A stretch of DNA of 64,000 bases, taken from positions 64,001-128,000 of the forward strand of contig CAVXXK010000004.1 of assembly GCA_963765675.1 (NCBI GenBank), read 5' to 3'. The first letter of the stretch is position 1. Every line of letters begins with the position of its first letter. A model generated the notes under the pieces. The model was not told the origin of the DNA, did no database searches, and worked only from the letters and a program-made list of their open reading frames with translations. Shown here one piece after another: positions 53,011 through 64,000 of this stretch. A program made the position numbers and the translations under genes. The DNA is from an uncultured delta proteobacterium. Lineage in GTDB: Bacteria > Desulfobacterota > Binatia > Binatales > Binataceae.

Positions 53011-55698
53011 CTACTGCCCGATCGCGGTGACGTTGCAGGTCTCCGCCATCATCGAGGCGTTCGCCGGCAGCGTCAGCACCGACGCTGTCGCCGTCGGATT
53101 GTAGCTCCCGCAACTCGCGAGCAGATTGGGTGCCGCAGAAAACGCGGTCGGAAACGTGAAGGTCTGTGCGCTGCCGGTCTCCTGGTATGCATTCAAATAG
53201 CAAGTCGCCGTCTTGAGCGTCCCCTGCATCGACATCGAGCAGGACGCCGTGCCGGAAGTGCCTGACAGCGAGGTCAAGGTCGGCGCGGAATTGAATACTG
53301 TCGCCTGATTCGGCTCCGTCGAGACGATCGGCGGAACGCTCTGGCCGGCTACTGTGCAGTTGATGCAGTTGAACTCGGGGATCGCACCTCCGTTCACAGA
53401 TTCAATCGGAATAAGACCCGGCGTTGCCGGAAGCGTGCCACGAGAGTTTCCATGGTTGCTCAGCGGCTGACCAAACTGCGAAGTGATGAACGTGGACCCG
53501 TTAGCTTGAGGATTAGTCAATGCGATATTGAAGCTGGTGGTCGTCGAGTCCGGCTCAAAGAACATGTTCAGATAAGTCGCGGCACCGCCATTGGCTATGA
53601 TCGCTCCCCACGGTCCGCTTCCGGAAGCGACTCGCCAATCGGATATGTTCATTAGGCCATAATACGGAGTAGCATATAGGAACATCTGCGCTGATTCTTC
53701 CTGGCCACCTTCTGTCTTTCCATAGGTTCCAATTGAGCCGATCTTATAGAGTATCCCTGGGGCTTCGGCGCTGGTATTCATCATTACGAACGAGCCGATA
53801 TTGTCGAAGTCAAAGCAATAGTCTCGTAAGAGGCACCCCGTGTTGTAAAAAACCTCATTGTAGGTTTCTTGCGAATTGGAATAGACACAGATCTGGCCAC
53901 CGATGCCGTTGGGCGCCGAGCATTGAAGGTCGTCGAAGATCGCGTTTTCGTCGTTAGACAGTCCGCCCAGATTCACACAGGTGCCGACCTCCCCACATTC
54001 CACGTGACGGACTCTGAGCGCGGTGGGCGTTGTCGGAACCGTCGCATTGCTGGCCGGAGCCCCCGGACCGGCATTCGACTGCGATGGGCTACTGGTCGGA
54101 TAGTTATTCTCATCGATCATGGTTCCCGGAGTGTTGCCTACTTGTCCCTCGACCCCGAGATTCTCGATCGTCGTATTGGCGGCATAGTTCATATTGAACA
54201 TGAGGCCGCCCGGAGGTCCGTCCCACCTGAGCTGCGTGTTTGAAACCCCTCCGTTCGGAGCGCGCGACGCACCGGTAATTCCGGCCTGTGCGGTTCCCCA
54301 AAAACTCACTGCCTGCGACATATCGTAGTGCGTCGCGCACGCCGGTAGATAAACCTGACTGTAGTTCGGGGCCGTCCCGGTAAACAGATACGATGCGTTC
54401 ACTGCGGCTTGTATCGCCGGTGAATTGTCATGTCGCATCGTCGTCCCACCGGAGATGGTCTGCGATGGCGCTACCGACAACGTAACATTGCTCCCGCTGA
54501 TCGCCGTGATCTTCGCATCGAGGTCTGACGCTACCGCGCTGGTGCTGGCCTGCTCATCGATCCCATATGGAAACCCATTGTCCCGGTATTGGTAGCTAGT
54601 ATACGGTGCGCGCGTTTGATTGAGCCCGACGATCGCATAGATACTCGATGGAGTGCAGGAAGCGCCGGTACAGCGCCGGATAATCGTCCCGGCCGTGTTC
54701 GCGTCGACCGACCAGGTCACGATGATGCCCGTCATCACCGAGAGCGTTGCCGGCCCGGTCGAGTCGCAAACCGGCGCACTCGCCGCCGAGCGCATTCCAT
54801 TTAAGCCCGAGCCGATCCCCGTCTGACCGATATTCTGAACGCTGTAGCAATAAGTTGTTGAACACGACGGGTTCGAGTTGTTCGGCGTCCCGTCATCGGT
54901 CATGCAGTTGCCGTTCGCTGTGACGGTCGAGCCGGGGATCGGATAATCGGCCTGGACGTACGGAAAAAAGTTGTAGATATAACCGTCATCAGTGACGCTC
55001 GAAATGGTCGGAGTTGTGATAGTGTTCGATGCTCCCGCGGCGTCGAGTTTGACGTACTGGCCGACCTTGAAATCGCTCGATCCGATCCCGCCGCAAACGA
55101 CCGTAGTGGAGCTGGCCGTCGTCGTGCAGCTTACCGTCGAGTCCGAGCAGACCACGCCGTATGCCGGATTAGTCAGATCGAGAACGCCCGCGATATTGAA
55201 TCCGTTGAGCGCCGCCGGCGTGCCGGTTCCGCTCGCAGCATTGACGCCGCTGGTGATTACCGGAGTCTTTCCACCTTCGACTGTGTTGACCGTGCTCGCG
55301 CTCGAGACTCCCGTCACGTCGCCGCCCATCGAAAGACTGCTCGCGCTGGAGGCGCAACTCCACCCGCCGTTCTGGCCCAAAGCCCATGCGCCCGAACCAC
55401 CGCCGGTGCAAGGACTGACCTTCTGGCAATCGACACAGTAAAACATCGTGCCGTCCTGCTCCGCAGGCAGATTCGCAAAACTCAGACTCACGAAGCTGGG
55501 TGAGATCGGCTGTGCACCCGAGAATCGATCGTTGATCGCCTCGCGAAACAACAGCCCCGCATTGGTGCCCGAGAAGTCCGGGATCGGCTGATAAGCGCCC
55601 GACGGCGGAAGATTCTGCGCCACTGTGCCCGCGGGAGCGGCTGCGATCGCCAAACCGAATATCATCGTGGCCGCCAACGCACGAAGTATCTGCTTCAT
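53011..55698 (-). CDS. Large Cys-rich tailspike/fibre-like protein with a Sec signal peptide
   Basis: MKQILRALAATMIFGLAIAAAPAGTVA-Q; DNSPAIQAAVNA...VYLPA beta-helix entry motif; C-terminal TFTFPTAFSAAP; last gene of the tail operon. Confidence 0.7.
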   Translation of the reverse strand: MKQILRALAATMIFGLAIAAAPAGTVAQNLPPSGAYQPIPDFSGTNAGLLFREAINDRFSGAQPISPSFVSLSFANLPAEQDGTMFYCVDCQKVSPCTGGGSGAWALGQNGGWSCASSASSLSMGGDVTGVSSASTVNTVEGGKTPVITSGVNAASGTGTPAALNGFNIAGVLDLTNPAYGVVCSDSTVSCTTTASSTTVVCGGIGSSDFKVGQYVKLDAAGASNTITTPTISSVTDDGYIYNFFPYVQADYPIPGSTVTANGNCMTDDGTPNNSNPSCSTTYCYSVQNIGQTGIGSGLNGMRSAASAPVCDSTGPATLSVMTGIIVTWSVDANTAGTIIRRCTGASCTPSSIYAIVGLNQTRAPYTSYQYRDNGFPYGIDEQASTSAVASDLDAKITAISGSNVTLSVAPSQTISGGTTMRHDNSPAIQAAVNASYLFTGTAPNYSQVYLPACATHYDMSQAVSFWGTAQAGITGASRAPNGGVSNTQLRWDGPPGGLMFNMNYAANTTIENLGVEGQVGNTPGTMIDENNYPTSSPSQSNAGPGAPASNATVPTTPTALRVRHVECGEVGTCVNLGGLSNDENAIFDDLQCSAPNGIGGQICVYSNSQETYNEVFYNTGCLLRDYCFDFDNIGSFVMMNTSAEAPGILYKIGSIGTYGKTEGGQEESAQMFLYATPYYGLMNISDWRVASGSGPWGAIIANGGAATYLNMFFEPDSTTTSFNIALTNPQANGSTFITSQFGQPLSNHGNSRGTLPATPGLIPIESVNGGAIPEFNCINCTVAGQSVPPIVSTEPNQATVFNSAPTLTSLSGTSGTASCSMSMQGTLKTATCYLNAYQETGSAQTFTFPTAFSAAPNLLASCGSYNPTATASVLTLPANASMMAETCNVTAIGQ

Positions 55699-55714
55699 CA
55701 GTATTCTCACTTGC

Positions 55715-56284
55715 TCAGAACCCTATCGCCAGCCACGAAAAGCCATTGCTCCGTTCGCCGGTGGGGCCAAGCGAAGTGCCGCCCGGAACATCCAGCACGA
55801 AGGTGGCTCCGGTGCGGCTGTATGTCACGACGCTGGCCACCGTGTTGAACCCGCTGGTGCTCGCGTAGACGTTGGTCGCGAGCGGCGGGAGCAATATCGC
55901 ATTGGGAAAGGTTATCGGCCAGGTGACGTTGAACTCTTCGTCGTTTGGAATCTTTTGATCGCTCAGCGGGAAATATCCCCACTGAATAAGCGCCGCGACC
56001 GCGCCCCGGCTGATATCCGTGATCGGGATCGTCAGATAGCCATTGGCCCGAAGAGAACCCGTGAAGCCAGCCATGAACGACTGCAGAATCCCGATGTTCG
56101 CAATGTTGGTGTTCTGGCGTCCGTACAGATAGGCAGTCCGGTTCGCCAGCTGCTGATGAGGCTGATTACTCAGTCCAATTCCGCTGAAGCTGGCGCCTGA
56201 AGCGGCGCCTTCAACTGAATCCGTCGCCTGGATTTCGTAAATTTCATTAGCGGTAAATTCCGGACTGTCTATTAGCGTGGCCAT
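55715..56284 (-). CDS. Short tail fibre protein (baseplate-anchoring N-terminus, gp53-like C-terminus)
   Basis: IYEIQATDSVEG...NQPHQQLANRTAYL; NGYLTIP...IQWG...TWPITFPN...WLAIGF. Confidence 0.8.
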   Translation of the reverse strand: MATLIDSPEFTANEIYEIQATDSVEGAASGASFSGIGLSNQPHQQLANRTAYLYGRQNTNIANIGILQSFMAGFTGSLRANGYLTIPITDISRGAVAALIQWGYFPLSDQKIPNDEEFNVTWPITFPNAILLPPLATNVYASTSGFNTVASVVTYSRTGATFVLDVPGGTSLGPTGERSNGFSWLAIGF

Positions 56285-56360
56285 GTATGTCCTCTTGTCG
56301 TGACGCCCGCTCTTCCACTGCGCCGGGATCGCGCATCGTTCGAATCTTTCGCCGAACTCC

Positions 56361-56825
56361 TCAGAAAGTCAGTGTCCAGGTTCCCGCAAGCGACATCCCG
56401 GCGGTGAATACTATCGGGCTCAGAGTTTTGCGCGCGAGAATCGGCGTGGGCGCGTTGCCCCCCGGAACTCCAACTCCGGTATGATTCGCGAACAGTGCGA
56501 TCTCCTGGATCGTGATCCCCTGCGCGCCGGTATCCGCCGTAGTCAGGCTCCAGTTAAACGTGACGCTTCCGTTACCGTCCTCCGAATGAGCGTCGACCGG
56601 TTTGTAATACGCCGGTGCGGTAAGTCCGAGATCATTCACCGTTGGCGCATTCGAGCCCGTGCCGAAACCCACCACCGAGCAGAACTCGCCGGTCGTGTCC
56701 CCGCCGAGCAGCGCCGCCAAAGCAGGCAGTCCGGCGTTCACGAACAGGTTTCGCCCCTGATCCTGGTAAATCAATTCGCCGCGCCCGAACACCCGCACCA
56801 TCACCGTTCCGCAAGGCCTATTCAT
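56361..56825 (-). CDS. Phage tail/baseplate-associated protein
   Basis: RNLFVNAG...GFGTGS..P...IQEIALFA...WTLTF pattern; between gpI and the fibre gene; GGAGG RBS. Confidence 0.7.
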   Translation of the reverse strand: MNRPCGTVMVRVFGRGELIYQDQGRNLFVNAGLPALAALLGGDTTGEFCSVVGFGTGSNAPTVNDLGLTAPAYYKPVDAHSEDGNGSVTFNWSLTTADTGAQGITIQEIALFANHTGVGVPGGNAPTPILARKTLSPIVFTAGMSLAGTWTLTF

Positions 56826-56826
56826 T

Positions 56827-57693
56827 TCAACCTCCATTGAGCGTTGCGACGCCGTTTACGATTAGCGCGGGATCAGCGACAACCGGTTCATTCGCGCCGT
56901 AGGTGATTCCGCTATGCACGTAGTGTGCGTTGTATATTGGCGCGATCGGACCGTAGCCGTCAGTGTAGGACGGCGTGGTGATCGCGACGAAAAGTTGCGC
57001 GTCGGACGGCTGCGGTGCCGCGTCGATTTGATATTCGGCGATACCGCCAAGGGTAATGCTGTCATCCGGCGTCGGCGCGGCGTCTCGAACCGGCGCGATT
57101 ACAAACCACAGCGAATCCAGCCACGCGCGCGCGGGCTGAAAAAAATTGATCGCCGCAATTGCGCTTTGCGCCGAACCCGCGGGCACCGGCGCGTCCGTGC
57201 CAAGACTTATCAGAACCCGGAATACCGCCCATCCCTCGGAACTCGGATATGCGGTTCCGCCCCAGCTCGCCTCACCTTCTTGAATTATTACATCGGTCCA
57301 TCCAAGTGACGACAACGCCTGCTTGATCGCCGCCGGTGTTCCACGCTCGCGATGCAGCGCGATAGCTAGCTTCAACAGTTCGCGTTCCGTCGCCGCATTC
57401 GGTGCGACTTCGCCGGCCGCCGAGTCAGGACCGGACAGCGTATCGATATCGGTAAGCGAATCGATATCGGTCAGCGTATCTATACTCAGTCCGACCGGAG
57501 CTGCGAGCTGCCATAGCGGCGACAGAATATCGAACTGCCACGCAAGAAAGACCAGCGCGCCGTCCACTACCGAATCGATTCGATAGATCAACAGCGGCGT
57601 CAGATCGAGCGCCGACAGACGCTCAATCAGCACGAGCAATGCCTGAGTCCGAGTGTCGTTGATCGACGGTGATGCGGATAACTCAGCCATCAT
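56827..57693 (-). CDS. Baseplate wedge protein, P2 gpI-like
   Basis: LVFLAWQF, RELLKLAIALHRERGTPAAIKQAL, WAVFRV, FQPARAWL. Confidence 0.88.
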   Translation of the reverse strand: MMAELSASPSINDTRTQALLVLIERLSALDLTPLLIYRIDSVVDGALVFLAWQFDILSPLWQLAAPVGLSIDTLTDIDSLTDIDTLSGPDSAAGEVAPNAATERELLKLAIALHRERGTPAAIKQALSSLGWTDVIIQEGEASWGGTAYPSSEGWAVFRVLISLGTDAPVPAGSAQSAIAAINFFQPARAWLDSLWFVIAPVRDAAPTPDDSITLGGIAEYQIDAAPQPSDAQLFVAITTPSYTDGYGPIAPIYNAHYVHSGITYGANEPVVADPALIVNGVATLNGG

Positions 57694-57837
57694 GCGCTCC
57701 GGATAAAGAGGAACACCAGGACATAAGGGAAGCCAAAGACATTAAGACACCAGACGAATGGATCATAGCCGCGCGCCGCGCGCCCCTGTGATCCTTTTCT
57801 TGGCGCGCTCGTGCCTTCATGTTTTGGATCACTTCCC

Positions 57838-59007
57838 TCACGAATGTTCAGTCGATGTGGCGGACGTCAACGATATTGCGGTGCAGTTCGCCCATTGTCC
57901 CGCTGCTAACTGAGTATATGCAGGCTCTGTGAGCGTAATTTCGTAAACGCCCGCTACCGAAAGCGCCGCGACCACCTGGCTCGGCACGATATCGCGCTGA
58001 ATCTTCGCGGCGAGTCCCAGCGCGTATTGCACCGCGGCGTTGTTCACGGCGGTCATGGTCGTATTCGGATCAGCGTCCGAGTACAGCGTCACAGTCGCGG
58101 TAATCTGGTAATCGATTTCGGTTACCGCGAGCACGTTGACCGTGTCAGTCAACGGACGTACCGCATCGGCGCTGAGTGTGGCGGAAACCTTCTCGAGCAG
58201 CGGCGCTCCCGCAACTCCGGCAGCGTTTGGCGCGCTTTGCGGCTGGACGGTTATCGGCCCGGTGAGGATATATACATTGACCTGCCCCGGCGCCGGACTG
58301 ATCACCAACGCGTCGACGATTGACGGATCGACTCCCAATGCAAAAAATCTGTACGCTCCTGCTGGACCTGCCACGCTGAACTGGTTCGGCGCCGCCTGGA
58401 TACGCGAGCGCAGATGGTCATCGGTTTCCGGCGACGAGCCGCCCGCGGTGACTGTGGTATTGCTGACACTTGCAATTGTCGCGCTCGGACTGAGTAGTGC
58501 GTTGACTTGACCCACCAGGTAGCCATTCGCGCCCGATCCCGGTTGGACCGCCGACGCGCCCACCGTGCCCGAAAGCGCGCCCGCGGGAATAACCAGCGCC
58601 GCGGTTGTCGCGAATGAGTATTGCCCATCGCTGGTACCGGCGAGCGTACCCTCGGCGATCGTGATCGCGACCGTCAGCACGCTTGAGAGCGTGAATTCGA
58701 GCGTCGTTGTCGCGCTCTGGGCGGCAAGCCGGGCCACACCCACGAGCTGGCCCAAATAGTCGATCATCGGAAATATCGCGAAGGCAAGAAGGTTTTGTTG
58801 CGCGGCGTACTGAATTGCGTTGCGGACCAGGGATTCGCGGTACGCATAGAGGTTGATCAGAAGACGCTCAACCTGGGCGGGCTGCAAAGTGCGGTCGGCG
58901 GCCGCCTCAAACTCCGCGATCATATCGGCAAGCACGAGATTCGGATCGAGCCCGTCCGAATCATCGACGAATACCGGGGGCGGAAGCGACGGGATTCCTG
59001 CTGCCAT
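57838..59007 (-). CDS. Baseplate J/gp47 family protein
   Basis: QQNLLAFA...DYLG, GGSSPETDDHLRSRI, FSVAGPAGAYRF, VRPLTDTV. Confidence 0.93.
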   Translation of the reverse strand: MAAGIPSLPPPVFVDDSDGLDPNLVLADMIAEFEAAADRTLQPAQVERLLINLYAYRESLVRNAIQYAAQQNLLAFAIFPMIDYLGQLVGVARLAAQSATTTLEFTLSSVLTVAITIAEGTLAGTSDGQYSFATTAALVIPAGALSGTVGASAVQPGSGANGYLVGQVNALLSPSATIASVSNTTVTAGGSSPETDDHLRSRIQAAPNQFSVAGPAGAYRFFALGVDPSIVDALVISPAPGQVNVYILTGPITVQPQSAPNAAGVAGAPLLEKVSATLSADAVRPLTDTVNVLAVTEIDYQITATVTLYSDADPNTTMTAVNNAAVQYALGLAAKIQRDIVPSQVVAALSVAGVYEITLTEPAYTQLAAGQWANCTAISLTSATSTEHS

Positions 59008-59026
59008 CAGTATATATCCTTGCCGT

Positions 59027-59455
59027 TCACTGCGCCGACGCGCCAAGCGAGACGGTAGTGGTCGTAGTAGTGTTTGATCCTGTGCTGGGCGCCCCGGACA
59101 GGTTGAGTTGCCACGTGACGCTCACTTCCAAATGCGCCCCCGACTGAGTAGTCGTATCGAGCACTGGAACCGCGGTGACATTTACCAGCGTGATGCGCGG
59201 TTCCCACAGGCTCAGCGCGGCGGTCACCTCTCGAACGATCGCGGGCAGCGACTGGGACATCGGATGATCGATGTAGCGCCAGATATCGCAGCCGAATGTG
59301 GGTCGCAGCGGATCGCTGCCGAGCGGCGTGGTGAGGATGATGGCAACGCACTGGTCGACATCGGCGACGCCTTGCACCACTTGCCCGATCGCGCCGAGCT
59401 TGAGCGACCAATCCGCCGACGTGATATCGGCGAGTGTGACTGCGCCCGCGCTCAT
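59027..59455 (-). CDS. Baseplate wedge protein GpW/gp25
   Basis: QCVAIILTTPLGSDPLRPTFG...WEPRI. Confidence 0.93.
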   Translation of the reverse strand: MSAGAVTLADITSADWSLKLGAIGQVVQGVADVDQCVAIILTTPLGSDPLRPTFGCDIWRYIDHPMSQSLPAIVREVTAALSLWEPRITLVNVTAVPVLDTTTQSGAHLEVSVTWQLNLSGAPSTGSNTTTTTTVSLGASAQ

Positions 59456-59456
59456 C

Positions 59457-60083
59457 CTACTCCGCCTCCACGATCAGGCTCGCGCTGGTGATCGACCCAA
59501 GCCCCGCGGGACAAGTTACCTGGTCGCCCAGGCGCGCGACGCCTTTCAACTGCCCTGCTCCGAGGCGAATCTGCGCCAGCGAGGTTAACTGCGCGTTCCC
59601 CTCCGCGTCGATCGCGATCGAGGCGGCGCCCGCGCCGATCGTCAAGGTGGCGCCGGTCGGCAACGCAATCGTGAGCGCGTGCGCGCCGCCGTCGTACTTG
59701 ATCGATGCACCGTCGCCAAACTGAAGACTCAGTACGTGCGCCGCGCGATCGTACTCAAACGAGGCGCCGTCCTTAAACCCGAGATGCCACTTGTCGGCGC
59801 TGCTGACTGGCGTCGTGTCGGCCGATGAATAGATCGCGCCGAGGACCGCGCCCGCCTCGTCGTGCGCGTCCATCAGGCAGACAACTTGCTCGCCGAGGTC
59901 TGGAATCCAGTAAGCCTTGTCGTTCTGACTCTTGGGCACGACGATTGGCAGCCACCAACTCCGCATCTGATCATAGTCGGCGAACGTGACCCGCACGCGA
60001 GCGAGCGCCGTGTCCTGCTCCTGCACAATCCCGACCCGGAACAAACCGGGTGCCGTCGCGCGGCGATCCTCATGATGCAACAT
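59457..60083 (-). CDS. Baseplate spike protein GpV
   Basis: RVRVTF.D..SWWL, PDLGEQV, VLGAIYS, FKDGASFEYD; ends VARLGDQVTCP. Confidence 0.92.
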   Translation of the reverse strand: MLHHEDRRATAPGLFRVGIVQEQDTALARVRVTFADYDQMRSWWLPIVVPKSQNDKAYWIPDLGEQVVCLMDAHDEAGAVLGAIYSSADTTPVSSADKWHLGFKDGASFEYDRAAHVLSLQFGDGASIKYDGGAHALTIALPTGATLTIGAGAASIAIDAEGNAQLTSLAQIRLGAGQLKGVARLGDQVTCPAGLGSITSASLIVEAE

Positions 60084-60091
60084 CGCCTACC

Positions 60092-61099
60092 TCACACGCT
60101 GCGCAGCGCTTCGAGTTCGGTCGTGTAGCCTCGCTCGCGACTGATCAAATGCCGCGCGGTTTCGATCAGATAAATCCCGTCGAGCATTCCCCATCCTGAA
60201 AGCAGCACGTTGCATCCCGCTGAGAGCGCAGGATTCCCGGGACCGGCCAGCCGCGCGCTGAAGAACGACTGGTTATTGCGATTCAGCGCGGCGCTCGCGC
60301 GCAGTCCCGCCTGCGCCGCATTCTCGCATCGCGCGATTATCTTGAGCGTGTCGCCGGTCGGCGCTGCGGTAACTGCCGATGCGCTCTGCGCGATGAGTTG
60401 TTTGCCGGAGGGATCGAAATATGCTGCTGACGCCGCCGAATATATTCGCCGAGTGCGGTTGCGAAACTCGAAGCGCTCGAGGCCGCTGCGTACGATCGTC
60501 GCGATCGGCAGCGACGCCTGCAGTATTGCGTGCGCGTAAAATACCATTTGCGATCCGCGAATCGTGAAGTCGTAGCCAAATTCGTCTGCAAGCCGCCACA
60601 GGAATTCGAGATCGGTTTCGTCGCGTTGGGTCACGCGCGCGAATGCTACGTCCTCGACCTCGGGCGCGCTCACCAACCCAAGTCCATACTTGCCCGCGAT
60701 CGTCGCGGCGATCGCGAGCAGCGTCTGCCCCTCGTACGCGGCACTGTTGCGCGTGCGCATCGCGGGAGTCACATACGCCGCCAGGCATCGCAGCCGAAAT
60801 ACGTCGGGCGGCCCCGACAATTGCAGATCATCGACCTGAAACGCTCCGCACTCGAGGAGCTGACCGCCACTGTATCCGAGCAAGGCCTCGATACCGTCGC
60901 CGAGCGCCGGATACCACGGCCCCTGCCAGCGCTGCGCGTGATCTTCCACCTCAACGCACAGTTCGCCGGACCTCGCGCCGAGCCGATCGACATAACTGAT
61001 CGCTCGCACCATCGCGGAAATCTCACCCGAGATATTCACTCCCGCGTAATTGAGTATCCACTGAGGCGAACGGACTGAGTATGAAATAGCTGCGCTCAT
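60092..61099 (-). CDS. Baseplate hub protein, P2 gpD / late control D family
   Basis: ISYVD...SGEL.VEVED, LGY...CGAFQVD, TQRDETDLEFL.RLA.EFGY, GNPAL.AG, GYTTELE; ATGA overlap with gpX. Confidence 0.92.
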   Translation of the reverse strand: MSAAISYSVRSPQWILNYAGVNISGEISAMVRAISYVDRLGARSGELCVEVEDHAQRWQGPWYPALGDGIEALLGYSGGQLLECGAFQVDDLQLSGPPDVFRLRCLAAYVTPAMRTRNSAAYEGQTLLAIAATIAGKYGLGLVSAPEVEDVAFARVTQRDETDLEFLWRLADEFGYDFTIRGSQMVFYAHAILQASLPIATIVRSGLERFEFRNRTRRIYSAASAAYFDPSGKQLIAQSASAVTAAPTGDTLKIIARCENAAQAGLRASAALNRNNQSFFSARLAGPGNPALSAGCNVLLSGWGMLDGIYLIETARHLISRERGYTTELEALRSV

Positions 61100-61350
61100 G
61101 ACATGGTACCCGCCGCGCTCGAGGACGACGCGGTCTTCCATGGCGGCAGATCAGTGTTGTGCGAGTTGCTCGCACTTAGAACTGGAACCTGGATCACTAT
61201 TCCGGCCTCGAACACCGGTTCAATCGCCACCAGCGGATTAGCCATGATGATCGGATTGAAGCGCGTCGCGTCGCCATAAAACCTCCACGCGAGCAGGTCC
61301 CAGCGTTCGCCCGCGCGCGTGACATGCGCGATATACTGCGTCGCCGTCAT
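61096..61350 (-). CDS. Tail protein X (LysM-like)
   Basis: HVTRAGERWDLLAWRFYG...ANP...LPPW. Confidence 0.9.
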   Translation of the reverse strand: MTATQYIAHVTRAGERWDLLAWRFYGDATRFNPIIMANPLVAIEPVFEAGIVIQVPVLSASNSHNTDLPPWKTASSSSAAGTMS

Positions 61351-61935
61351 CGCGCCACGCTCCGCGTGATTGCCGCGGTCGAGATGTCACCCGGCTGCTG
61401 GATCGGAGGTGGCCGGCGCCGAAGGCGGCGGATTTCCGAGCAGAGCGCTAAGCCCGATCGGTGATAGCGACGCGGCTGGCGCGCTCGCGGTGCTTGAGCT
61501 GGATAGGAGGCCCAGCGGCGCGAAGTTGAGCAGGCCTGCAGCTCCTGGATCGAGCAGCGAATCGAGCGGCCACTGCTTGAGCCCGAGCCGCAGGCGAAGC
61601 GCGATCGGAGCGCCGCCTGCGTCGAGCTGCGCCGCGCGCGTCGTGATCGTCTCGATCACAAAGTAGCCGCGCAGAGTTCCGTTGCCGAGCACCAGCGGCA
61701 TCGCCTGATGAGTCTCGGCGGCAGCGCGCAGGGCAACCGCCTGAAGTTCGGGATTTGCGAGTGAGGCGTGCAGCAACAGGTCGAACGACAGCCGCTCGAG
61801 GCTGTCTCCCGTCCACTGGAGCCGCGGCTGCGCTTCGATTACCCGCTGCTCGGCGTAAACATAGCCGCGCTCGGACTCGATCCCCTCCGGCGAGCCGACC
61901 ACCTCAAACTGGATTGTGCCGAGTTCAGCAAACAC
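61347..61935 (-). CDS. Tube initiator GpU family protein; probable 1-base indel near 61400 (as written it stops at 61387)
   Basis: MFAELGTIQF, YAEQRVIEAQPRLQWTG, PLVLGNG...GYFVI; the alternative frame PGDISTAAITRSVAR* ends in an ATGA overlap with gpX. Confidence 0.85.
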
Positions 61936-61967
61936 TGTACTTTCTCCGAATAGCCACAATGCACTCG

Positions 61968-62258
61968 TCAGTCGGCGCGCGCGGCCGCTCCGCCGCCCTG
62001 ATTGTCGCGCCGGACCGAGGTGGCCGCTTCCACCCGCATCGGACGGCCCGCGAGCTCGGCGCCGTTGAGATCTTCAATCGCCGCCGCGGCGTCCTCGACC
62101 CGCGCCATTTCGACGAAACCGAATCCCCGCGAGCGCCCGTCGAAACGATCGCGCACGACCTCCGCGCGCTCGACGATACCTACTTTCGCGAACGCTTCGC
62201 GCAGCTCGTCGTCGCTCAGCCGAAAACTCAGATTGCCAACAAATAATCGCCCACTCAT
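61968..62258 (-). CDS. RRM (RNP-1) RNA-binding protein in the tape-measure position
   Basis: RNP2 LFVGNL and RNP1 RGFGFVEM; AAAGGA RBS; short Gly/Arg tail. Confidence 0.95.
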   Translation of the reverse strand: MSGRLFVGNLSFRLSDDELREAFAKVGIVERAEVVRDRFDGRSRGFGFVEMARVEDAAAAIEDLNGAELAGRPMRVEAATSVRRDNQGGGAAARAD

Positions 62259-62285
62259 CTGGCTACGTCCTTTTTCGATTCGCGG

Positions 62286-62459
62286 TCATTCTACGTCCAG
62301 TTCCGCCTCCCCTCCGCCGCCGGCGATTGCGCGCCGATAATCGCGGACCGCGCGGGTCCAGTATTCGAGTTCCGCAAAATCCATCGCCCGCAGTTCGGCT
62401 AGCGGAAATCCGAATCGGACAAGTCCCGCGAATCCGGCGGCGGAGGGAGCTGAAAATTT
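62286..62459 (-). CDS. -1 frameshift extension of the tail assembly chaperone (gpE'/lambda gpT analogue)
   Basis: Slippery A-AAT-TTT at 62459-62453; -1 frame reads SAPSAAGFAGLVRFGFPLAELRAMDFAELEYWTRAVRDYRRA. Confidence 0.75.
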   Translation of the reverse strand, partial: KFSAPSAAGFAGLVRFGFPLAELRAMDFAELEYWTRAVRDYRRAIAGGGGEAELDVE

Positions 62460-62752
62460 TCGCCGATCACCTCGGCCTGCAATGCCAGCACGTCGGCCAG
62501 CTCCATCGCGAGCACGTCTTCGTAAACGATCTTCCGTCCCGCGATCTCTGCCAGCTCTGCGACCAGCGCAAACACCACCGCGTTCGGATCGTCGCCGCCC
62601 GCCGCACGCTGCGCCCGCATCAGATCGCGCCCGTAGCCCTTGCGCACGATAGCCTGCTTGCCGGAGGGCAGCTCGAACGCGTGCGACTCGCCGCCGGCCG
62701 CGTCGCCACTCATTCCGATTACAACACCGTTCACTCGCATTTCTTCGGCCAT
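62399..62752 (-). CDS. Tail assembly chaperone (gpE/gp41-like)
   Basis: Directly after the tube gene; GRDLMRAQR...EDVLAMELADVLALQ pattern. Confidence 0.82.
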   Translation of the reverse strand: MAEEMRVNGVVIGMSGDAAGGESHAFELPSGKQAIVRKGYGRDLMRAQRAAGGDDPNAVVFALVAELAEIAGRKIVYEDVLAMELADVLALQAEVIGENFQLPPPPDSRDLSDSDFR

Positions 62753-62791
62753 CGCTCACCTCGCTTGTCGTTGGCGGCCCTGTCGAGCGCC

Positions 62792-63310
62792 TCAGCCGCC
62801 CAGGTTGCTGCGGAAATCGGAAAGCTGATCGACTCCGCCGACCACGTAAAGGTTTGCGAACACGTCGTAAAGATAAATCTGTACGCCCGCGACGTAGAGT
62901 TCCGCGTGATAAATACTCACTGCGGAAGTCGTCTCGACCATCTGATGCTGCTTGAATGCAGGCGCGCCGGCGTCCTTGAACACTCCCGTCATCAGGTAGA
63001 CGACAGGCAATTCGGCGCTGCGCCCCTGGCTCGTATACTGTTCCAGGTTGCCGCGCGTCTGGAACGAATGCGCGGTAAACGGGCTCGCGGCGAAGGTCAG
63101 CGCCTCGGCGTCAAACGACGCCCACTTGATCTTCGACTCGAGCTTGGCCACTCCTGCCCACAACTCCGCGGTACCGGCCATCCCGAGGCCCTTGTAGTCG
63201 ATCATCTTGTGCTTGGGATGCGCAATCTGGATTTCCTCAGCGCGGCCGAGCAGACCGACGCCGTCGATATAGATATTCGCATTAGTCAGTGAATTGATCT
63301 GGATATTCAT
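62792..63310 (-). CDS. Major tail tube protein (P2 FII-like)
   Basis: LTNANIYIDG..LLGRAEEI..., YKGLGMAG, YDVFAN.Y.VGGVDQL..FR.NLG. Confidence 0.93.
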   Translation of the reverse strand: MNIQINSLTNANIYIDGVGLLGRAEEIQIAHPKHKMIDYKGLGMAGTAELWAGVAKLESKIKWASFDAEALTFAASPFTAHSFQTRGNLEQYTSQGRSAELPVVYLMTGVFKDAGAPAFKQHQMVETTSAVSIYHAELYVAGVQIYLYDVFANLYVVGGVDQLSDFRSNLGG

Positions 63311-63322
63311 CCGCCGATACTC

Positions 63323-64000
63323 CTACGCGGTCGCGGAGGCGGTCGTGGTTTGCGGGCTGGTCTGACCGAGCTGCGACAGCAGGGTCGAGTCGATATAGCT
63401 CTGGAACGTGAGCCGCTCGGCCGGCGGCGGCGGCATCACGTCGATGTCGAAGACCAACTGCCCGGCGGCGACCTGGTTCGCGGGATTCTCCGCGGGATCG
63501 TAACTGGCCGAGCCCGCGACCAGCGCGCCGCGCTGGATCAGGCTGCGGATGAAGGCGTTGACGCTCGCGAGGATCGCCGTGATCAGCGCGTTCGAGATCG
63601 GCTGGTCGATAAACTGGAGCATCGAGAGCTGAATCGACTCCTCGATCACGTCCATCGTGCGCCGCACGTTGATAAAATTGTCCGGCGCGATGTCGGTCGG
63701 ATACGCCGCCGAGCGATTACCCCATACCCGCAGCCCGGTTCCGTACGCGTTGAACACGGTGACGATCCCTTGCGCGTTCAGGTTGTTCGAGTCCGATAGC
63801 GGATCGAGAATCGAAGAGTAGATGCTTACGTCGGGCCCCAGAATTCCCTCGACCTCGGTATTGGAAGGCGACCACCAATAGCCATTCGAAAGGTCCTTGG
63901 CCGCGATCGCGCCCGCCACCCATTGCGAATACGGTCCGACCGATGTTCCGGAATACGGCGTGGGAATCGGCGTACCGGCGGAAGTCAGCGTCACTCCCGT
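63323..64000 (-). CDS. Contractile tail sheath protein, C-terminal part (truncated by window)
   Basis: GYWWSPSN, LNAQGIVTV, GLRVWGNRS, FINVRRT.D.I, PPPPAERLTF. Confidence 0.96.
   Translation of the reverse strand, partial: TGVTLTSAGTPIPTPYSGTSVGPYSQWVAGAIAAKDLSNGYWWSPSNTEVEGILGPDVSIYSSILDPLSDSNNLNAQGIVTVFNAYGTGLRVWGNRSAAYPTDIAPDNFINVRRTMDVIEESIQLSMLQFIDQPISNALITAILASVNAFIRSLIQRGALVAGSASYDPAENPANQVAAGQLVFDIDVMPPPPAERLTFQSYIDSTLLSQLGQTSPQTTTASATA

What the first reader, a model, noticed from the sequence alone, without database searches (positions are those of the whole stretch)
61935..62752. Contractile tail operon in which an RRM RNA-binding protein replaces the tape-measure gene
Seen: the minus-strand order is sheath, tube, chaperone E, frameshift extension E', a 96-aa RRM protein (LFVGNL/RGFGFVEM), then U, X, D, V, W, J, I and fibres. 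Only 27 bp separate the E' stop from the RRM start and 32 bp separate the RRM stop from the gpU start, and both starts have an RBS. There is no room for a tape-measure remnant. Established: in P2-type tails and R-type pyocins the long tape-measure gene lies between the chaperone and gpU, sets tail length and is the client of E/E'. RRM proteins are not standard tail components. Inference: this is a domesticated, tape-measure-less contractile system. The RRM could (a) bind an RNA or ssDNA used as length ruler or cargo, (b) control the operon post-transcriptionally, including the E/E' frameshift ratio, or (c) mark a T6SS-like design where length is set by cell geometry.
Basis: partly seen in the sequence, partly recalled or inferred. 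Interest (0 to 1): 0.92.

Follow-up and report, generated by a model that had tools for sequence, protein, structure and literature searches.

The report
Tail operon with conserved RRM gene
A phage-derived particle gene cluster inherited by a family of soil bacteria keeps an RNA-binding (RRM) gene inside its tail operon, but its tape-measure gene is not missing: it has moved next to the DNA-packaging genes.

Summary
On the minus strand the order is sheath, tube, chaperone E, -1 frame extension E', a 96-aa RRM protein, then gpU, X, D, V, W, J, I and fibres. The gaps are 27 and 32 bp, and no tape measure (TMP) lies between E' and gpU.

The headline reading does not hold. In relatives (Candidatus Binataceae) the usual order is E-E'-RRM-TMP-gpU: 90 of 124 assessable loci. 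24 have the RRM without a TMP there, and 10 have a TMP without the RRM. So the RRM is an old operon member, not a replacement.

The TMPs share a C-terminal motif. A profile of that motif hits this genome once, in an ORF between gp27 and the large terminase, about 17 kb upstream and outside the window. Every searched genome lacking the in-place TMP carries it there, apart from one that ends at a contig edge. In this genome that gene has a 1-nt deletion, which may be an assembly error.

The 31.5-kb element has Mu-like head genes and a P2-like tail, with no transposase or integrase found. It lies beside murF in at least four genera and is under purifying selection (RRM dN/dS 0.05-0.11). The RRM's role is unknown; a post-transcriptional role is my inference.

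The parts
63323..64000 (-). Tail sheath gene, 3' part. The full gene is 512 aa and runs beyond the window end (L002 1324-2862).
   Evidence: PF04984/PF17482 and phrog_23 8e-61
62792..63310 (-). Tail tube (P2 FII type), 172 aa
   Evidence: PF04985 2.3e-38. 80-99% identical in 78 of the 80 GTDB and IMG/VR loci ranked highest.
62399..62752 (-). Tail assembly chaperone, gpE-like, 117 aa
   Evidence: phrog_21320 4e-22. Phage_TAC_7 E 0.0012, below the Pfam cut-off. Position and frameshift partner support the call.
62453..62459 (-). Slippery heptamer A_AAT_TTT for the -1 shift from E into E'
   Evidence: Read. AAATTT(T) at this place in 16 of 21 relatives' loci; the E' frame is offset -1 in 21 of 21.
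62286..62459 (-). E' extension (-1 frame), about 57 codons to the stop at 62288-62286
   Evidence: Conserved as protein in relatives (tblastn 57-98% identity), found in 17 of the 19 relatives' loci and in 16 of the 20 loci.
61968..62258 (-). Single-domain RRM protein, 96 aa, with RNP2 LFVGNL and RNP1 RGFGFVEM
   Evidence: PF00076 1.2e-22. No PHROG match. Present between tube/E' and TMP/gpU in 114 of 124 assessable loci. dN/dS 0.05-0.11.
61387..61935 (-). gpU-like tail/hub protein. The GTG start at 61935 is set by homology; the ORF finder gives a TTG at 61959.
   Evidence: PF06995 3.9e-25, phrog_788 1.4e-36. Relatives start at MFA.LGEI.
61096..61350 (-). gpX-like (LysM-type) tail protein
   Evidence: PF05489 1.1e-12
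60092..61141 (-). gpD-like baseplate hub
   Evidence: phrog_52 5.7e-78. PF05954 is below its cut-off.
59457..60083 (-). gpV-like spike (OB domain)
   Evidence: PF04717 1.5e-7, phrog_9992
59027..59455 (-). gpW/gp25-like wedge
   Evidence: PF04965 1.8e-15
57838..59046 (-). Baseplate J
   Evidence: PF04865 5.1e-51
56827..57693 (-). Tail protein I (P2 type)
   Evidence: PF09684 7.8e-13
53011..56837 (-). Distal fibre region with three ORFs (158, 189 and 899 aa). It ends 34 bp from murF.
   Evidence: The 189-aa ORF matches PF21882, gp53-like fibre C-end. The 158- and 899-aa ORFs have no Pfam family. GC falls to 0.55-0.60 here.

Best explanation
The operon is the tail module of a roughly 31.5-kb phage-derived element, G000:C4:117011-148526. 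It starts at window position 53011 and runs past the window end.

What the element contains:
- Mu-like head and packaging genes: gp27, TerL, Mu portal, protease I, major head T, gp36 and gp37.
- A P2-like contractile tail.
- A GH108 endolysin, a Mor-type late activator and a divergent S24/HTH repressor.
- No transposase, integrase or replication genes were detected.
It is inherited vertically in Candidatus Binataceae.

Gene order and the tape measure:
- The ancestral tail gene order is tube-E-E'-RRM-TMP-gpU.
- In the clade that holds this genome, the short tape-measure gene was cut out of that place. It was re-inserted between gp27 and TerL, about 17 kb upstream on the same strand (L002 16817-17837).
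- That gene is about 345 aa, Ala/Arg-rich, with pI about 11.5. Only its C-terminal 55 residues are well conserved.
- Its chaperone E/E' stayed behind and must act in trans.
- So tail length is still set by a tape measure, and the RRM does not replace it.
- In this assembly the relocated gene is broken by a 1-nt deletion. This is either a recent lesion or an assembly error.

The RRM protein:
- It is a long-standing accessory gene of this operon with canonical RNA-binding motifs. It is co-transcribed and co-translated with the low-copy tail-initiation genes.
- My committed reading is an inference, at about 0.35. The RRM acts post-transcriptionally on the element's own late mRNAs. Most likely it tunes translation or stability of the downstream hub genes (gpU-X-D), beside which it stays in all three gene orders seen.
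For: SHOWN - the TMP is in place in relatives.
- 326-476-aa ORFs lie between the RRM (or E') and gpU in 11 relatives.
- G028 has a 638-aa ORF at that place that matches phrog_28 (tape measure) at 1.3e-27.

SHOWN - a shared C-terminal motif.
- All of these ORFs end in a common motif of about 55 aa.
- The motif also ends a 674-aa canonical TMP (phrog_28, 1.2e-44) of another prophage in G005.

SHOWN - the TMP is relocated in this clade.
- A profile built only from the 12 in-place TMP ends hits the six-frame translation of G000 once below E 0.1, at C4:142816-143229 (E 8e-10). The hit ends at the TerL start.
- The same profile hits continuous ORFs at the same place in G009 (359 codons) and G032 (395 codons).

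SHOWN - a clean partition across the 61 genomes searched.
- The motif ORF abuts TerL in G000, G001, G002, G004, G005, G006, G007, G008, G009, G010, G025 and G032. It lies about 1 kb from TerL in G013. These genomes, with G003 (contig ends at TerL, no match), are the 14 with an E'-RRM-gpU junction lacking a TMP.
- The motif ORF lies at gpU in 13 genomes: it abuts gpU in G012, G019, G021, G022, G023, G024, G026, G027, G030, G034, G035 and G036, and in G028 a 322-aa ORF (about 1 kb) lies between it and gpU.
- gp27 abuts TerL in 2 of 3 in-place genomes checked.

SHOWN - length is conserved while sequence is not.
- The relocated genes are 344-353 aa in six same-genus genomes.
- Their N-terminal parts are only 50-60% identical to G000's in the three genus genomes where that part could be aligned (G009, G005, G002).

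SHOWN - a second, independent relocation.
- In L094/L174 the order is MCP-E-E'-TMP-gp36...tube-RRM-gpU.

SHOWN - the RRM is old and conserved.
- It is present at this place in 114 of 124 assessable loci.
- RRM dN/dS is 0.05-0.11, against 0.01-0.08 for the tube.
- Element RRMs are split from the two main chromosomal RRM groups by a 99/97 branch.

SHOWN - domestication.
- The murF-side and ABC-transporter-side flanks are conserved.
- murF lies 6-18 kb from gpU on the same contig in G000, G001, G004, G005, G009, G010, G013 and G023, and also in G032.

Counts that include G010 and G027 rest partly on genomes flagged unpublished.

INFERRED: co-transcription, from the 27- and 32-bp gaps and the absence of promoter- or terminator-like sites. 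The RRM's function is also inferred.
Against: - The short TMP-like proteins match no Pfam or PHROG tape-measure family themselves. The motif matches no solved structure. Their identity rests on the motif, on position in relatives, on length and on mutual exclusivity.
- The AF2 model is poor (mean pLDDT 51). It shows only long helices and disorder.
- In G000 itself the relocated gene is in two frames. As assembled, this genome may make no intact tape measure.
- G014 and G020 have the tube directly followed by gpU, and no motif ORF was found near the element with this query. Truly TMP-less or decayed variants may therefore exist in the family.
- The element is not at murF in G014, and apparently not in G012. 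It has moved or been rearranged at some time.
- For the RRM function there is no direct evidence. No RNA family was found, no conserved motif lies upstream of the RRM gene, and no RNA data exist.
Confidence: 0.72

Rival explanations
1. First reader's reading. This is a tape-measure-less contractile system in which the RRM protein takes the tape measure's place, with or without an RNA or ssDNA ruler. Alternatively, length is set as in a T6SS.
For: No TMP lies between E' and gpU in this genome or in 13 relatives. No PF10145 or phrog_28 match was found in the whole genome. As assembled, the relocated TMP of G000 is frameshifted.
Against: - A TMP-motif gene is co-conserved next to TerL in exactly the genomes that lack it at gpU.
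- The RRM coexists with an in-place TMP in 90 of 124 assessable loci.
- The relocated gene is intact in G009, G005, G002, G004, G006, G010, G032, G008 and G013.
- Head genes are present, so this is not a T6SS-like machine.
Confidence: 0.03
2. This is a one-off deletion or insertion in a decaying prophage. The TMP was lost and a host RRM gene landed in the gap in this genome only.
For: G000's TMP copy carries a 1-nt deletion. The element lacks early genes.
Against: - The junction is identical in order in 14 genomes, counting G000, and in 24 of 124 assessable loci.
- Tail genes and the RRM show dN/dS of 0.01-0.16 within the genus.
- The RRM lineage is distinct from the chromosomal paralogues, with at most 50% identity and a 99/97 branch.
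Confidence: 0.02
3. The RRM protein is an assembly or structural partner. It would handle the unusually basic, Arg-rich, disordered tape measure, directly or through bound RNA. Or it would be loaded into the tail and ejected as cargo.
For: - The ancestral position is between the chaperone E' and the TMP.
- Loci with the RRM have TMP bodies of median pI 11.6 and 13.5% Arg (86 loci). The 10 loci without it have 6% Arg and more hydrophobic residues.
- No RRM homologue was found in 50,697 GenBank phage genomes, so this is a lineage-specific addition.
Against: - The 10 RRM-less loci look like a few close kin (similar TMP lengths and compositions; I built no tree), so the correlation is not independent.
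- After both TMP relocations the RRM stayed with gpU and did not travel with the TMP or with E/E'.
- The RNP1 and RNP2 motifs are canonical. That points to RNA binding rather than peptide binding.
Confidence: 0.17
4. The RRM is a moron. It would be a host-type RNA chaperone carried for the benefit of the host cell and expressed independently of particle production, with no role in the element's own cycle.
For: - It descends from the same family as the chromosomal small RRM proteins. There are 10 paralogue hits in G000, the best 50% identical.
- Other cargo genes sit inside the element: an ABC ATPase and a 961-aa NHL protein.
Against: - It is embedded with 27- and 32-bp gaps between essential tail genes, and no promoter- or terminator-like site was found.
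- It holds this position through three gene orders.
- The simple sigma-70 scan may not fit this phylum, so this evidence is weak.
Confidence: 0.2
5. The element is an active temperate phage family that integrates site-specifically beside murF, rather than a domesticated, non-mobile element.
For: - IMG/VR holds 119 contigs that encode the tube protein.
- The element lies elsewhere in G014 and probably in G012.
- A repressor, Mor and a lysis gene are present.
Against: - No integrase, transposase or replication gene was detected between the conserved flanks. The PF02914 search found nothing, but its control did not ring either.
- Identity of element genes falls in step with kinship class: 85-99% in most of the genus and 45-87% in other genera.
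- There is one copy per genome in 28 of 29 genomes with a gpU match.
- In G005 the element is split between two contigs, each half next to its usual host flank.
- IMG/VR contigs are computational prophage calls, not particles.
Confidence: 0.15

Closest known systems
P2-type and Mu-type contractile tail modules (P2 FI-FII-E-E+E'-T-U-D; R-type pyocins). The gene order is recalled from general knowledge; the families were tested here.
   Same: Sheath, tube, E/E' chaperone with a -1 frameshift, gpU, X, D, V, W, J and I are all present in the canonical order. Most relatives keep the TMP between the chaperone and gpU.
   Different: - An RRM gene lies between E' and the TMP/gpU.
- The TMP is short (about 345 aa, against 815 aa recalled for P2 gpT), Ala/Arg-rich and hypervariable except for its C-end.
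- In this clade the TMP is encoded between gp27 and TerL rather than in the tail module.
Mu-like prophages (Mu gp27, gp28 TerL, gp29 portal, I, T, gp36, gp37, Mor)
   Same: Head, packaging and late-regulation genes match the Mu families PF11985, PF06074, PF10123, PF10124, PF07030, PF09646 and PF08765.
   Different: - No transposase A/B or other early region was detected between the repressor and Mor.
- The chromosomal position beside murF is fixed in several genera.
- The tail hub is P2-like (U, X, D).
Gene transfer agents and defective prophages kept by the host (RcGTA, PBSX; recalled, not tested)
   Same: It is a head-plus-tail particle cluster without replication or integration functions. 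It is inherited vertically, under purifying selection, and carries a lysis gene and a repressor/activator switch.
   Different: Packaging of host DNA, particle production and transfer are untested. The lineage (Mu-like head with a contractile tail, in Binatota) differs from the named examples. No paper on it was found.
Small single-RRM RNA-binding proteins of bacteria (for example cyanobacterial Rbp proteins; recalled)
   Same: One RRM_1 domain with canonical RNP1 and RNP2 motifs. It is 44-50% identical to chromosomal paralogues of the same genome.
   Different: - It has no Gly/Arg-rich tail and is mildly acidic, with median pI 5.6 against 9.0 for the chromosomal ones.
- It forms its own lineage.
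- It is encoded inside a phage-type tail operon. No homologue was found in 50,697 GenBank phages.
Type VI secretion systems (contractile and tape-measure-less; recalled)
   Same: Sheath, tube, gp25-like and VgrG/V-like OB-fold parts are shared across contractile systems.
   Different: This element has capsid, portal and terminase genes and a tape-measure gene. The T6SS-like reading is excluded.

Membership tests
P2/Mu-type contractile phage tail module | Sheath and tube genes | tested here: met
   PF04984, PF17482 and PF04985
P2/Mu-type contractile phage tail module | Tail assembly chaperone pair made by a -1 programmed frameshift | tested here: met
   The -1 frame extension is conserved as protein in most relatives' loci (17 of 19, 16 of 20) and offset -1 in 21 of 21 loci examined. 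The slippery AAATTT(T) is present in 16 of those 21. Frameshifting itself was not observed.
P2/Mu-type contractile phage tail module | Tape-measure gene between the chaperone and gpU | tested here: not met
   Only the RRM gene and gaps of 27 and 32 bp lie there. The feature is met in 100 of 124 assessable relatives' loci. Here the gene lies between gp27 and TerL.
P2/Mu-type contractile phage tail module | Baseplate hub and wedge set (U, X, D, V, W, J, I) | tested here: met
   PF06995, PF05489, phrog_52, PF04717, PF04965, PF04865 and PF09684
Tape measure protein (for the gp27-TerL ORF) | Sequence membership in a described TMP family | tested here: not met
   The short forms give no Pfam or PHROG hit. 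PF10145 and phrog_28 give no hit in G000.
Tape measure protein (for the gp27-TerL ORF) | Homology to proteins that occupy the TMP position and to canonical TMPs | tested here: met
   A C-end profile built from 12 in-place TMPs hits it at 8e-10. The same motif ends two phrog_28 TMPs.
Tape measure protein (for the gp27-TerL ORF) | Extended, helical, non-globular protein whose length sets tail length | tested here: inconclusive
   The AF2 model has mean pLDDT 51 and shows long helices plus disorder. Length is conserved at 344-353 aa in the genus despite 50-60% identity. Tail length cannot be measured here.
RRM_1 (PF00076) RNA-binding domain | Domain match over the curated cut-off, with RNP1 and RNP2 motifs | tested here: met
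   80 bits against a 20.7-bit cut-off. LFVGNL and RGFGFVEM are kept in the element RRMs of relatives.
RRM_1 (PF00076) RNA-binding domain | Binds RNA | not testable with these tools
   No RNA runs hold the locus. No Rfam family was found nearby.
Domesticated prophage / GTA-like element | Lacks its own replication, integration or transposition genes | tested here: inconclusive
   None was found among the ORFs scanned between the host flanks. Several small ORFs have no family. The PF02914 control did not ring.
Domesticated prophage / GTA-like element | Vertical inheritance at a fixed locus under purifying selection | tested here: met
   The element lies beside murF in nine genomes of at least four genera. 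It is not there in G014 or G012. dN/dS is 0.01-0.3 for structural genes.
Domesticated prophage / GTA-like element | Particles package host DNA and transfer it | not testable with these tools
   Needs cultures or particle sequencing.
Tailocin (R-type pyocin) | Tail genes without head and packaging genes | tested here: not met
   Portal, TerL, protease and major head genes are present and conserved.

The most novel reading that the evidence does not exclude
Binataceae carry a family-wide, host-owned, Mu-headed contractile particle (GTA-like). An RRM RNA-binding protein has become an obligatory part of its tail-initiation machinery. One possibility is that the RRM, with bound RNA, handles an unusually basic, protamine-like tape measure. 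Another is that it is delivered with the tape measure into recipient cells. Either would be the first ribonucleoprotein step in phage-tail assembly or delivery.
Probability: 0.1. Interest if true: 0.85.

Novelty: new variant of a known kind. Interest (0 to 1): 0.5.

Why it matters
- It removes a false lead: this contractile tail is not ruler-less.
- Tape-measure genes can leave the tail module and still be kept. This happened at least twice in this lineage, once alone and once together with its chaperones. Scans that call a tail 'TMP-less' from local synteny, or from Pfam/PHROG hits alone, will therefore be wrong for such elements.
- The scan also turned up a conserved, apparently host-owned particle cluster in Binatota, a little-studied soil phylum. 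It is a candidate gene transfer agent or defective-phage weapon.
- The cluster holds a strongly conserved RRM gene inside a tail operon. That gene has no counterpart in 50,697 deposited phage genomes, so it is a concrete target for asking what an RNA-binding protein does in particle production.

Tried and rejected
- **Reads.** The look-up of sequencing runs listed 16 DNA runs. None held half of the sampled words, and no RNA holder was listed. Read laying on L074 with X1-X4 gave only short, low-depth Logan contigs of relatives. No listed piece bridged the RRM-gpU junction by 31 letters on both sides. Cover at the TMP frameshift was 0-2.3. So the reads could test neither the junction nor the 1-nt deletion.
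- **Canonical TMP families** in the whole genome: PF10145 and phrog_28 gave no match. This did not show absence of a TMP, because the short form escapes both.
- **Mu transposase** PF02914: no match, but the control genomes gave none either, so it is uninformative.
- **Solved structures** with the TMP C-end profile: only chance-level hits, E 0.04 or worse.
- **Pfam** on six TMP forms at E up to 1: nothing relevant.
- **AF2 model** of the G009 TMP: mean pLDDT 51, too poor for a fold search, so none was run.
- **Rfam** on L074 and L053: no family.
- **Sigma-70 and terminator scan** of 61000-64000: no sites.
- **Alignment upstream of the RRM start** across the three gene orders: no conserved motif.
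- **RRM charge**: mildly acidic, nothing decisive.
- **RRM homologues in low-GC IMG/VR contigs** lie next to glycosyltransferases, not tail genes. Ten neighbour proteins from four contigs were scanned. They were rejected as parallels.
- **Literature.** Four searches (terms Binatia+prophage, RNA recognition motif+tape measure+phage, tape measure+relocated+prophage+contractile, Binatota+phage). I saw listings and abstract starts only and read no paper. None concerned this element. Supplements were not consulted.


Full report
**1. The observation**

The minus strand of 53011-64000 carries a complete P2-type contractile tail module. Family searches confirm each gene:
- sheath (PF04984/PF17482, phrog_23);
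- tube (PF04985, 2e-38);
- an E-like chaperone (phrog_21320, 4e-22; Pfam TAC_7 below its cut-off);
- a 96-aa RRM_1 protein (PF00076, 1.2e-22);
- gpU (PF06995), gpX (PF05489), gpD (phrog_52), V (PF04717), W (PF04965), J (PF04865), I (PF09684) and a gp53-like fibre piece.

27 bp lie between the E' stop (62288-62286) and the RRM ATG (62258). 32 bp lie between the RRM stop (61970-61968) and the gpU GTG (61935). Purine-rich RBS-like words precede both starts.

The E' frame is real. Its translation is conserved in most relatives' loci (17 of 19, 16 of 20). It is offset by -1 in 21 of 21 loci examined. A slippery A_AAT_TTT at 62459-62453 is kept as AAATTT(T) in 16 of those 21. Nothing else lies between E' and gpU.

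**2. What the operon belongs to**

The window is G000:C4:64001-128000. Upstream of the sheath, beyond the window end, lie:
- gp37, gp36, the Mu-type major head protein T and protease I;
- a block of cargo or unknown genes: an ABC ATPase, a 961-aa NHL-repeat protein, two unknown ORFs and a methyltransferase;
- the Mu portal, a large terminase (phrog_2) and gp27;
- small late genes, a GH108 endolysin and a Mor-type activator;
- divergently, an HTH/S24 repressor.

Host ABC-transporter genes follow. At the other end the last fibre gene stops 34 bp from murF. The element therefore spans C4:117011-148526.

No transposase, integrase or replication gene was found among the ORFs scanned. The PF02914 genome search found nothing, but its control did not ring, so that search says little.

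Record titles of close relatives name the group: Candidatus Binataceae / Binatus MAGs from soil and peat.

**3. It is conserved, not a one-off**

- A gpU homologue is found in 29 of 61 related genomes, counting G000. That is 10 of 10 others of the genus and 28 of 36 others of the family. It is nearly always single-copy.
- The order tube-E-E'-RRM-U-X-D, with no room for a TMP, recurs in 14 genomes counting G000. The others are G001-G010, G013, G025 and G032.
- Head and tail genes are conserved throughout. The major head protein is 57-99% identical in 18 of the 20 loci (76-99% in 16 of them); the other two loci do not reach it.
- The murF-side and transporter-side flanks are the same in G009, G005 and G032.
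- murF lies 6-18 kb from gpU on the same contig in G000, G001, G004, G005, G009, G010, G013 and G023. It is 176 kb away in G014 and on another contig in G012.
- Pairwise dN/dS against six relatives:

| Gene | dN/dS |
|---|---|
| tube | 0.01-0.08 |
| RRM | 0.05-0.11 |
| gpU | 0.12-0.29 |
| TerL | 0.02-0.23 |

This is a vertically inherited element under purifying selection. 'Domesticated' is a fair word, although self-transmission has not been excluded. G010 and G027 are flagged unpublished. They enter these counts, but no claim depends on them alone.

**4. Where the tape measure is**

In the more distant relatives the gap between the RRM (or E') and gpU holds one ORF of 326-476 aa. In G028 the ORF is 638 aa.

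The G028 protein is a canonical tape measure (phrog_28, 1.3e-27). All of these ORFs end in the same motif of about 55 residues: a short strand-like INSSPT-type stretch, then a helix that ends in RTEF or a close variant. The same motif ends a 674-aa phrog_28 tape measure (1.2e-44) of an unrelated prophage in G005.

I built a profile from the 12 in-place ends only and searched the six-frame translation of the whole G000 genome. It gave one hit below E 0.1, at C4:142816-143229, minus strand (E 8e-10). The hit ends exactly at the start of TerL. The same profile finds continuous ORFs of 359 and 395 codons, stop to stop, at the same place in G009 and G032.

Genome-wide searches with the motif alignment and with TerL partition the family cleanly:
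- The motif ORF abuts TerL in G000, G001, G002, G004, G005, G006, G007, G008, G009, G010, G025 and G032.
- It lies about 1 kb from TerL in G013.
- In G003 the contig ends at TerL, and no match was found.
- It lies at gpU in 13 genomes: it abuts gpU in G012, G019, G021, G022, G023, G024, G026, G027, G030, G034, G035 and G036, and in G028 a 322-aa ORF (about 1 kb) separates it from gpU.

The first group is exactly the group whose E'-RRM-gpU junction lacks a TMP. Conversely, gp27 abuts TerL in two of three in-place genomes checked (G012 and G036). G030 has 750 bp of something else there.

The relocated and in-place forms are alike in length and make-up:
- Relocated genes are 344-353 aa in six genus genomes. 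In-place genes have a median of 345 aa over 86 RRM-bearing loci.
- Both are about 24% Ala and 14% Arg, with pI about 11.5.
- Their N-terminal three quarters evolve fast: 50-60% identity within the genus, dN/dS 0.47-0.60. The C-end is better kept, at dN/dS 0.27-0.46.

Conserved length with free sequence is what a ruler would show.

I conclude that the tape-measure gene was translocated about 17 kb within the element. It is not lost.

The weak points of this conclusion:
- The short forms match no described TMP family.
- The motif matches no solved structure.
- The AF2 model is poor (mean pLDDT 51, long helices and disorder).

**5. The copy in this genome**

Compared with G009, G005 and G002, G000 lacks one base near L002:17237. 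The gene therefore reads in two frames: an N-part of 327 codons from the ATG at L002:17838, and a C-part in L002:16817-17230.

It is the only broken copy among the genus genomes with full cover. Two observations make an assembly error as likely as a real lesion:
- G009, a similar few-contig MAG, shows split matches in gpD, sheath and gp37.
- Four other MAG loci, whose contig names suggest long-read assemblies (my guess from the names alone), have broken in-place TMPs.

The public runs could not settle this.

**6. The RRM gene**

I examined 160 loci that encode the tube protein: 80 IMG/VR contigs and 80 GTDB species representatives. 36 do not reach gpU. Of the 124 that do:

| Arrangement between tube and gpU | Loci |
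|---|---|
| RRM and TMP | 90 |
| RRM, no TMP | 24 |
| TMP, no RRM | 10 |
| neither | 0 |

These loci are kin, and some may be the same organism twice.

A third gene order exists in L094/L174: MCP-E-E'-TMP-gp36-gp37-sheath-tube-RRM-gpU. The chaperones and the tape measure moved together, and the RRM again stayed next to gpU. So the TMP has been relocated at least twice, while RRM-gpU adjacency is stable.

Other facts about the RRM:
- Element RRMs keep RNP2 and RNP1.
- They lack the Gly/Arg tail of the chromosomal paralogues and are mildly acidic.
- A 99/97-supported branch separates them from the two main chromosomal RRM groups. Four long-branch paralogues fall among them, but a single clade is not rejected (p-AU 0.50).
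- No homologue exists in 50,697 GenBank phage genomes at E 1e-5.
- In IMG/VR the non-Binataceae RRM hits that I looked at sit beside glycosyltransferases, not tail genes.

**7. How it most likely works**

Shown:
- The gene is conserved, under constraint and RNA-binding by sequence.
- It lies between low-copy tail-initiation genes, with no room or signal for separate transcription.

Inferred:
- It is made with the late tail transcript and acts on RNA.
- My preferred role, at about 0.35, is post-transcriptional tuning of the element's late messages, most likely of the hub genes just downstream.

Rivals are a structural or chaperone role with the protamine-like tape measure (about 0.17) and a host-benefit moron (about 0.2).

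For the structural rival, RRM-bearing loci have Arg-rich TMP bodies (13.5% Arg) and the 10 RRM-less loci do not (6%). Those 10 look like a few close kin (no tree was built), and the RRM did not travel with the TMP.

Control of the E/E' frameshift is not favoured. Two RRM-less loci examined (L037, L039) keep the slippery site.

No RNA partner was found.

**8. Comparison and verdict**

The tail works like a P2/Mu tail and meets every membership feature tested, except the place of the tape-measure gene. The head and regulation genes are Mu-like, without the early region.

As a whole the element resembles gene transfer agents and PBSX-type defective prophages, a comparison I make from memory. Its function as such is untested. 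It is not a tailocin, because head genes are present, and it is not T6SS-like.

No paper on it was found (listings only).

What remains new is a conserved RRM gene in a tail operon, a short basic tape measure that has changed place twice, and a family-wide host-kept particle cluster in Binatota. I rate it a new variant of a known kind, with interest 0.5.

Noticed in passing
L094 1-12516 (IMG/VR) and L174 (GTDB representative, Ca. Binataceae): A third gene order: MCP-E-E'-TMP (424 codons)-gp36-gp37-sheath-tube-RRM-gpU. The chaperones and the tape measure moved as one block upstream of gp36, and the RRM stayed at gpU. L208 also has tube-RRM-gpU, with E and TMP not in the locus.
   Followed up: partly
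L045 (G014:C1:913000-932999) and L040 (G020:C11:1-20000): In these two genomes the tube is followed by gpU after 110 and about 400 bp, with no E, RRM or TMP. The TMP-end profile or alignment found only a 670-690-codon ORF at a distant locus. These may be decayed or truly TMP-less variants, or the genes lie elsewhere in diverged form.
   Followed up: partly
G005: L050/L056/L057 (contig C1) and L062 (contig C2): In this 6-contig genome the element is split. The murF-fibre-tail-head-NHL part is on C1. The portal-TerL-TMP-gp27-lysis-Mor-repressor-ABC transporter part is on C2. Each half lies next to its usual host flank and both look intact.
   Followed up: partly
L002 7127-13593 (G000:C4:133126-139592, beyond the window end): About 6 kb of cargo lies between protease I and the portal: an ABC-type ATPase (PF00005), a 961-aa NHL-repeat protein with a C-terminal Ig-like/ASH domain, two unknown ORFs (311 and 332 aa) and a methyltransferase. 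The NHL protein and the unknown ORFs are conserved at this place in G009 and G032, and the NHL protein in G005.
   Followed up: partly
window 53011-55710 (-): The last, 899-aa fibre-region ORF has no Pfam family. It sits in a GC trough (0.55-0.60, against about 0.63-0.68 around it). That is consistent with an exchanged receptor-binding module.
   Followed up: no
L002 1324-3725 (sheath and gp37 genes) and the same genes in relatives: tblastn shows a shared segment of about 70 aa between the C-terminal part of gp37 (residues about 190-272; phrog_807, Ig-like domain) and an insertion in the sheath (residues about 100-180). It is seen reciprocally in most relatives.
   Followed up: no
L049 (G009:C2:487000-506999): gpD, sheath and gp37 each give two adjoining tblastn pieces in G009. 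That suggests frameshifts in a 4-contig MAG and bears on how far single-base indels in these assemblies can be trusted.
   Followed up: no
L167, L168, L171, L204 (GTDB representatives): The in-place TMP is open for only 84-140 codons before the motif, within a gap of normal size. These are broken copies or assembly indels, like the G000 copy.
   Followed up: no
L122-L126, L133, L136, L213, L214, L216, L221: The 10 loci with a TMP but no RRM have less Arg-rich TMP bodies than the 86 RRM-bearing loci: median 6% Arg against 13.5%, and 30% hydrophobic residues against 20%. They look like a few close kin, by similar TMP lengths and compositions; I built no tree.
   Followed up: partly
L256 (G032:C5:897702-900965): G032 has a second RRM-like frame with an internal TAG (45% identical to the element RRM). 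It lies 164 kb from the element, with no other element gene beside it. A weak TMP-end hit lies 4 kb away.
   Followed up: partly
L313, L305, L306, L320 (IMG/VR, GC 0.32-0.35): RRM genes in low-GC viral contigs lie beside glycosyltransferase genes, not tail genes. They may be host cargo or mis-set prophage borders.
   Followed up: partly
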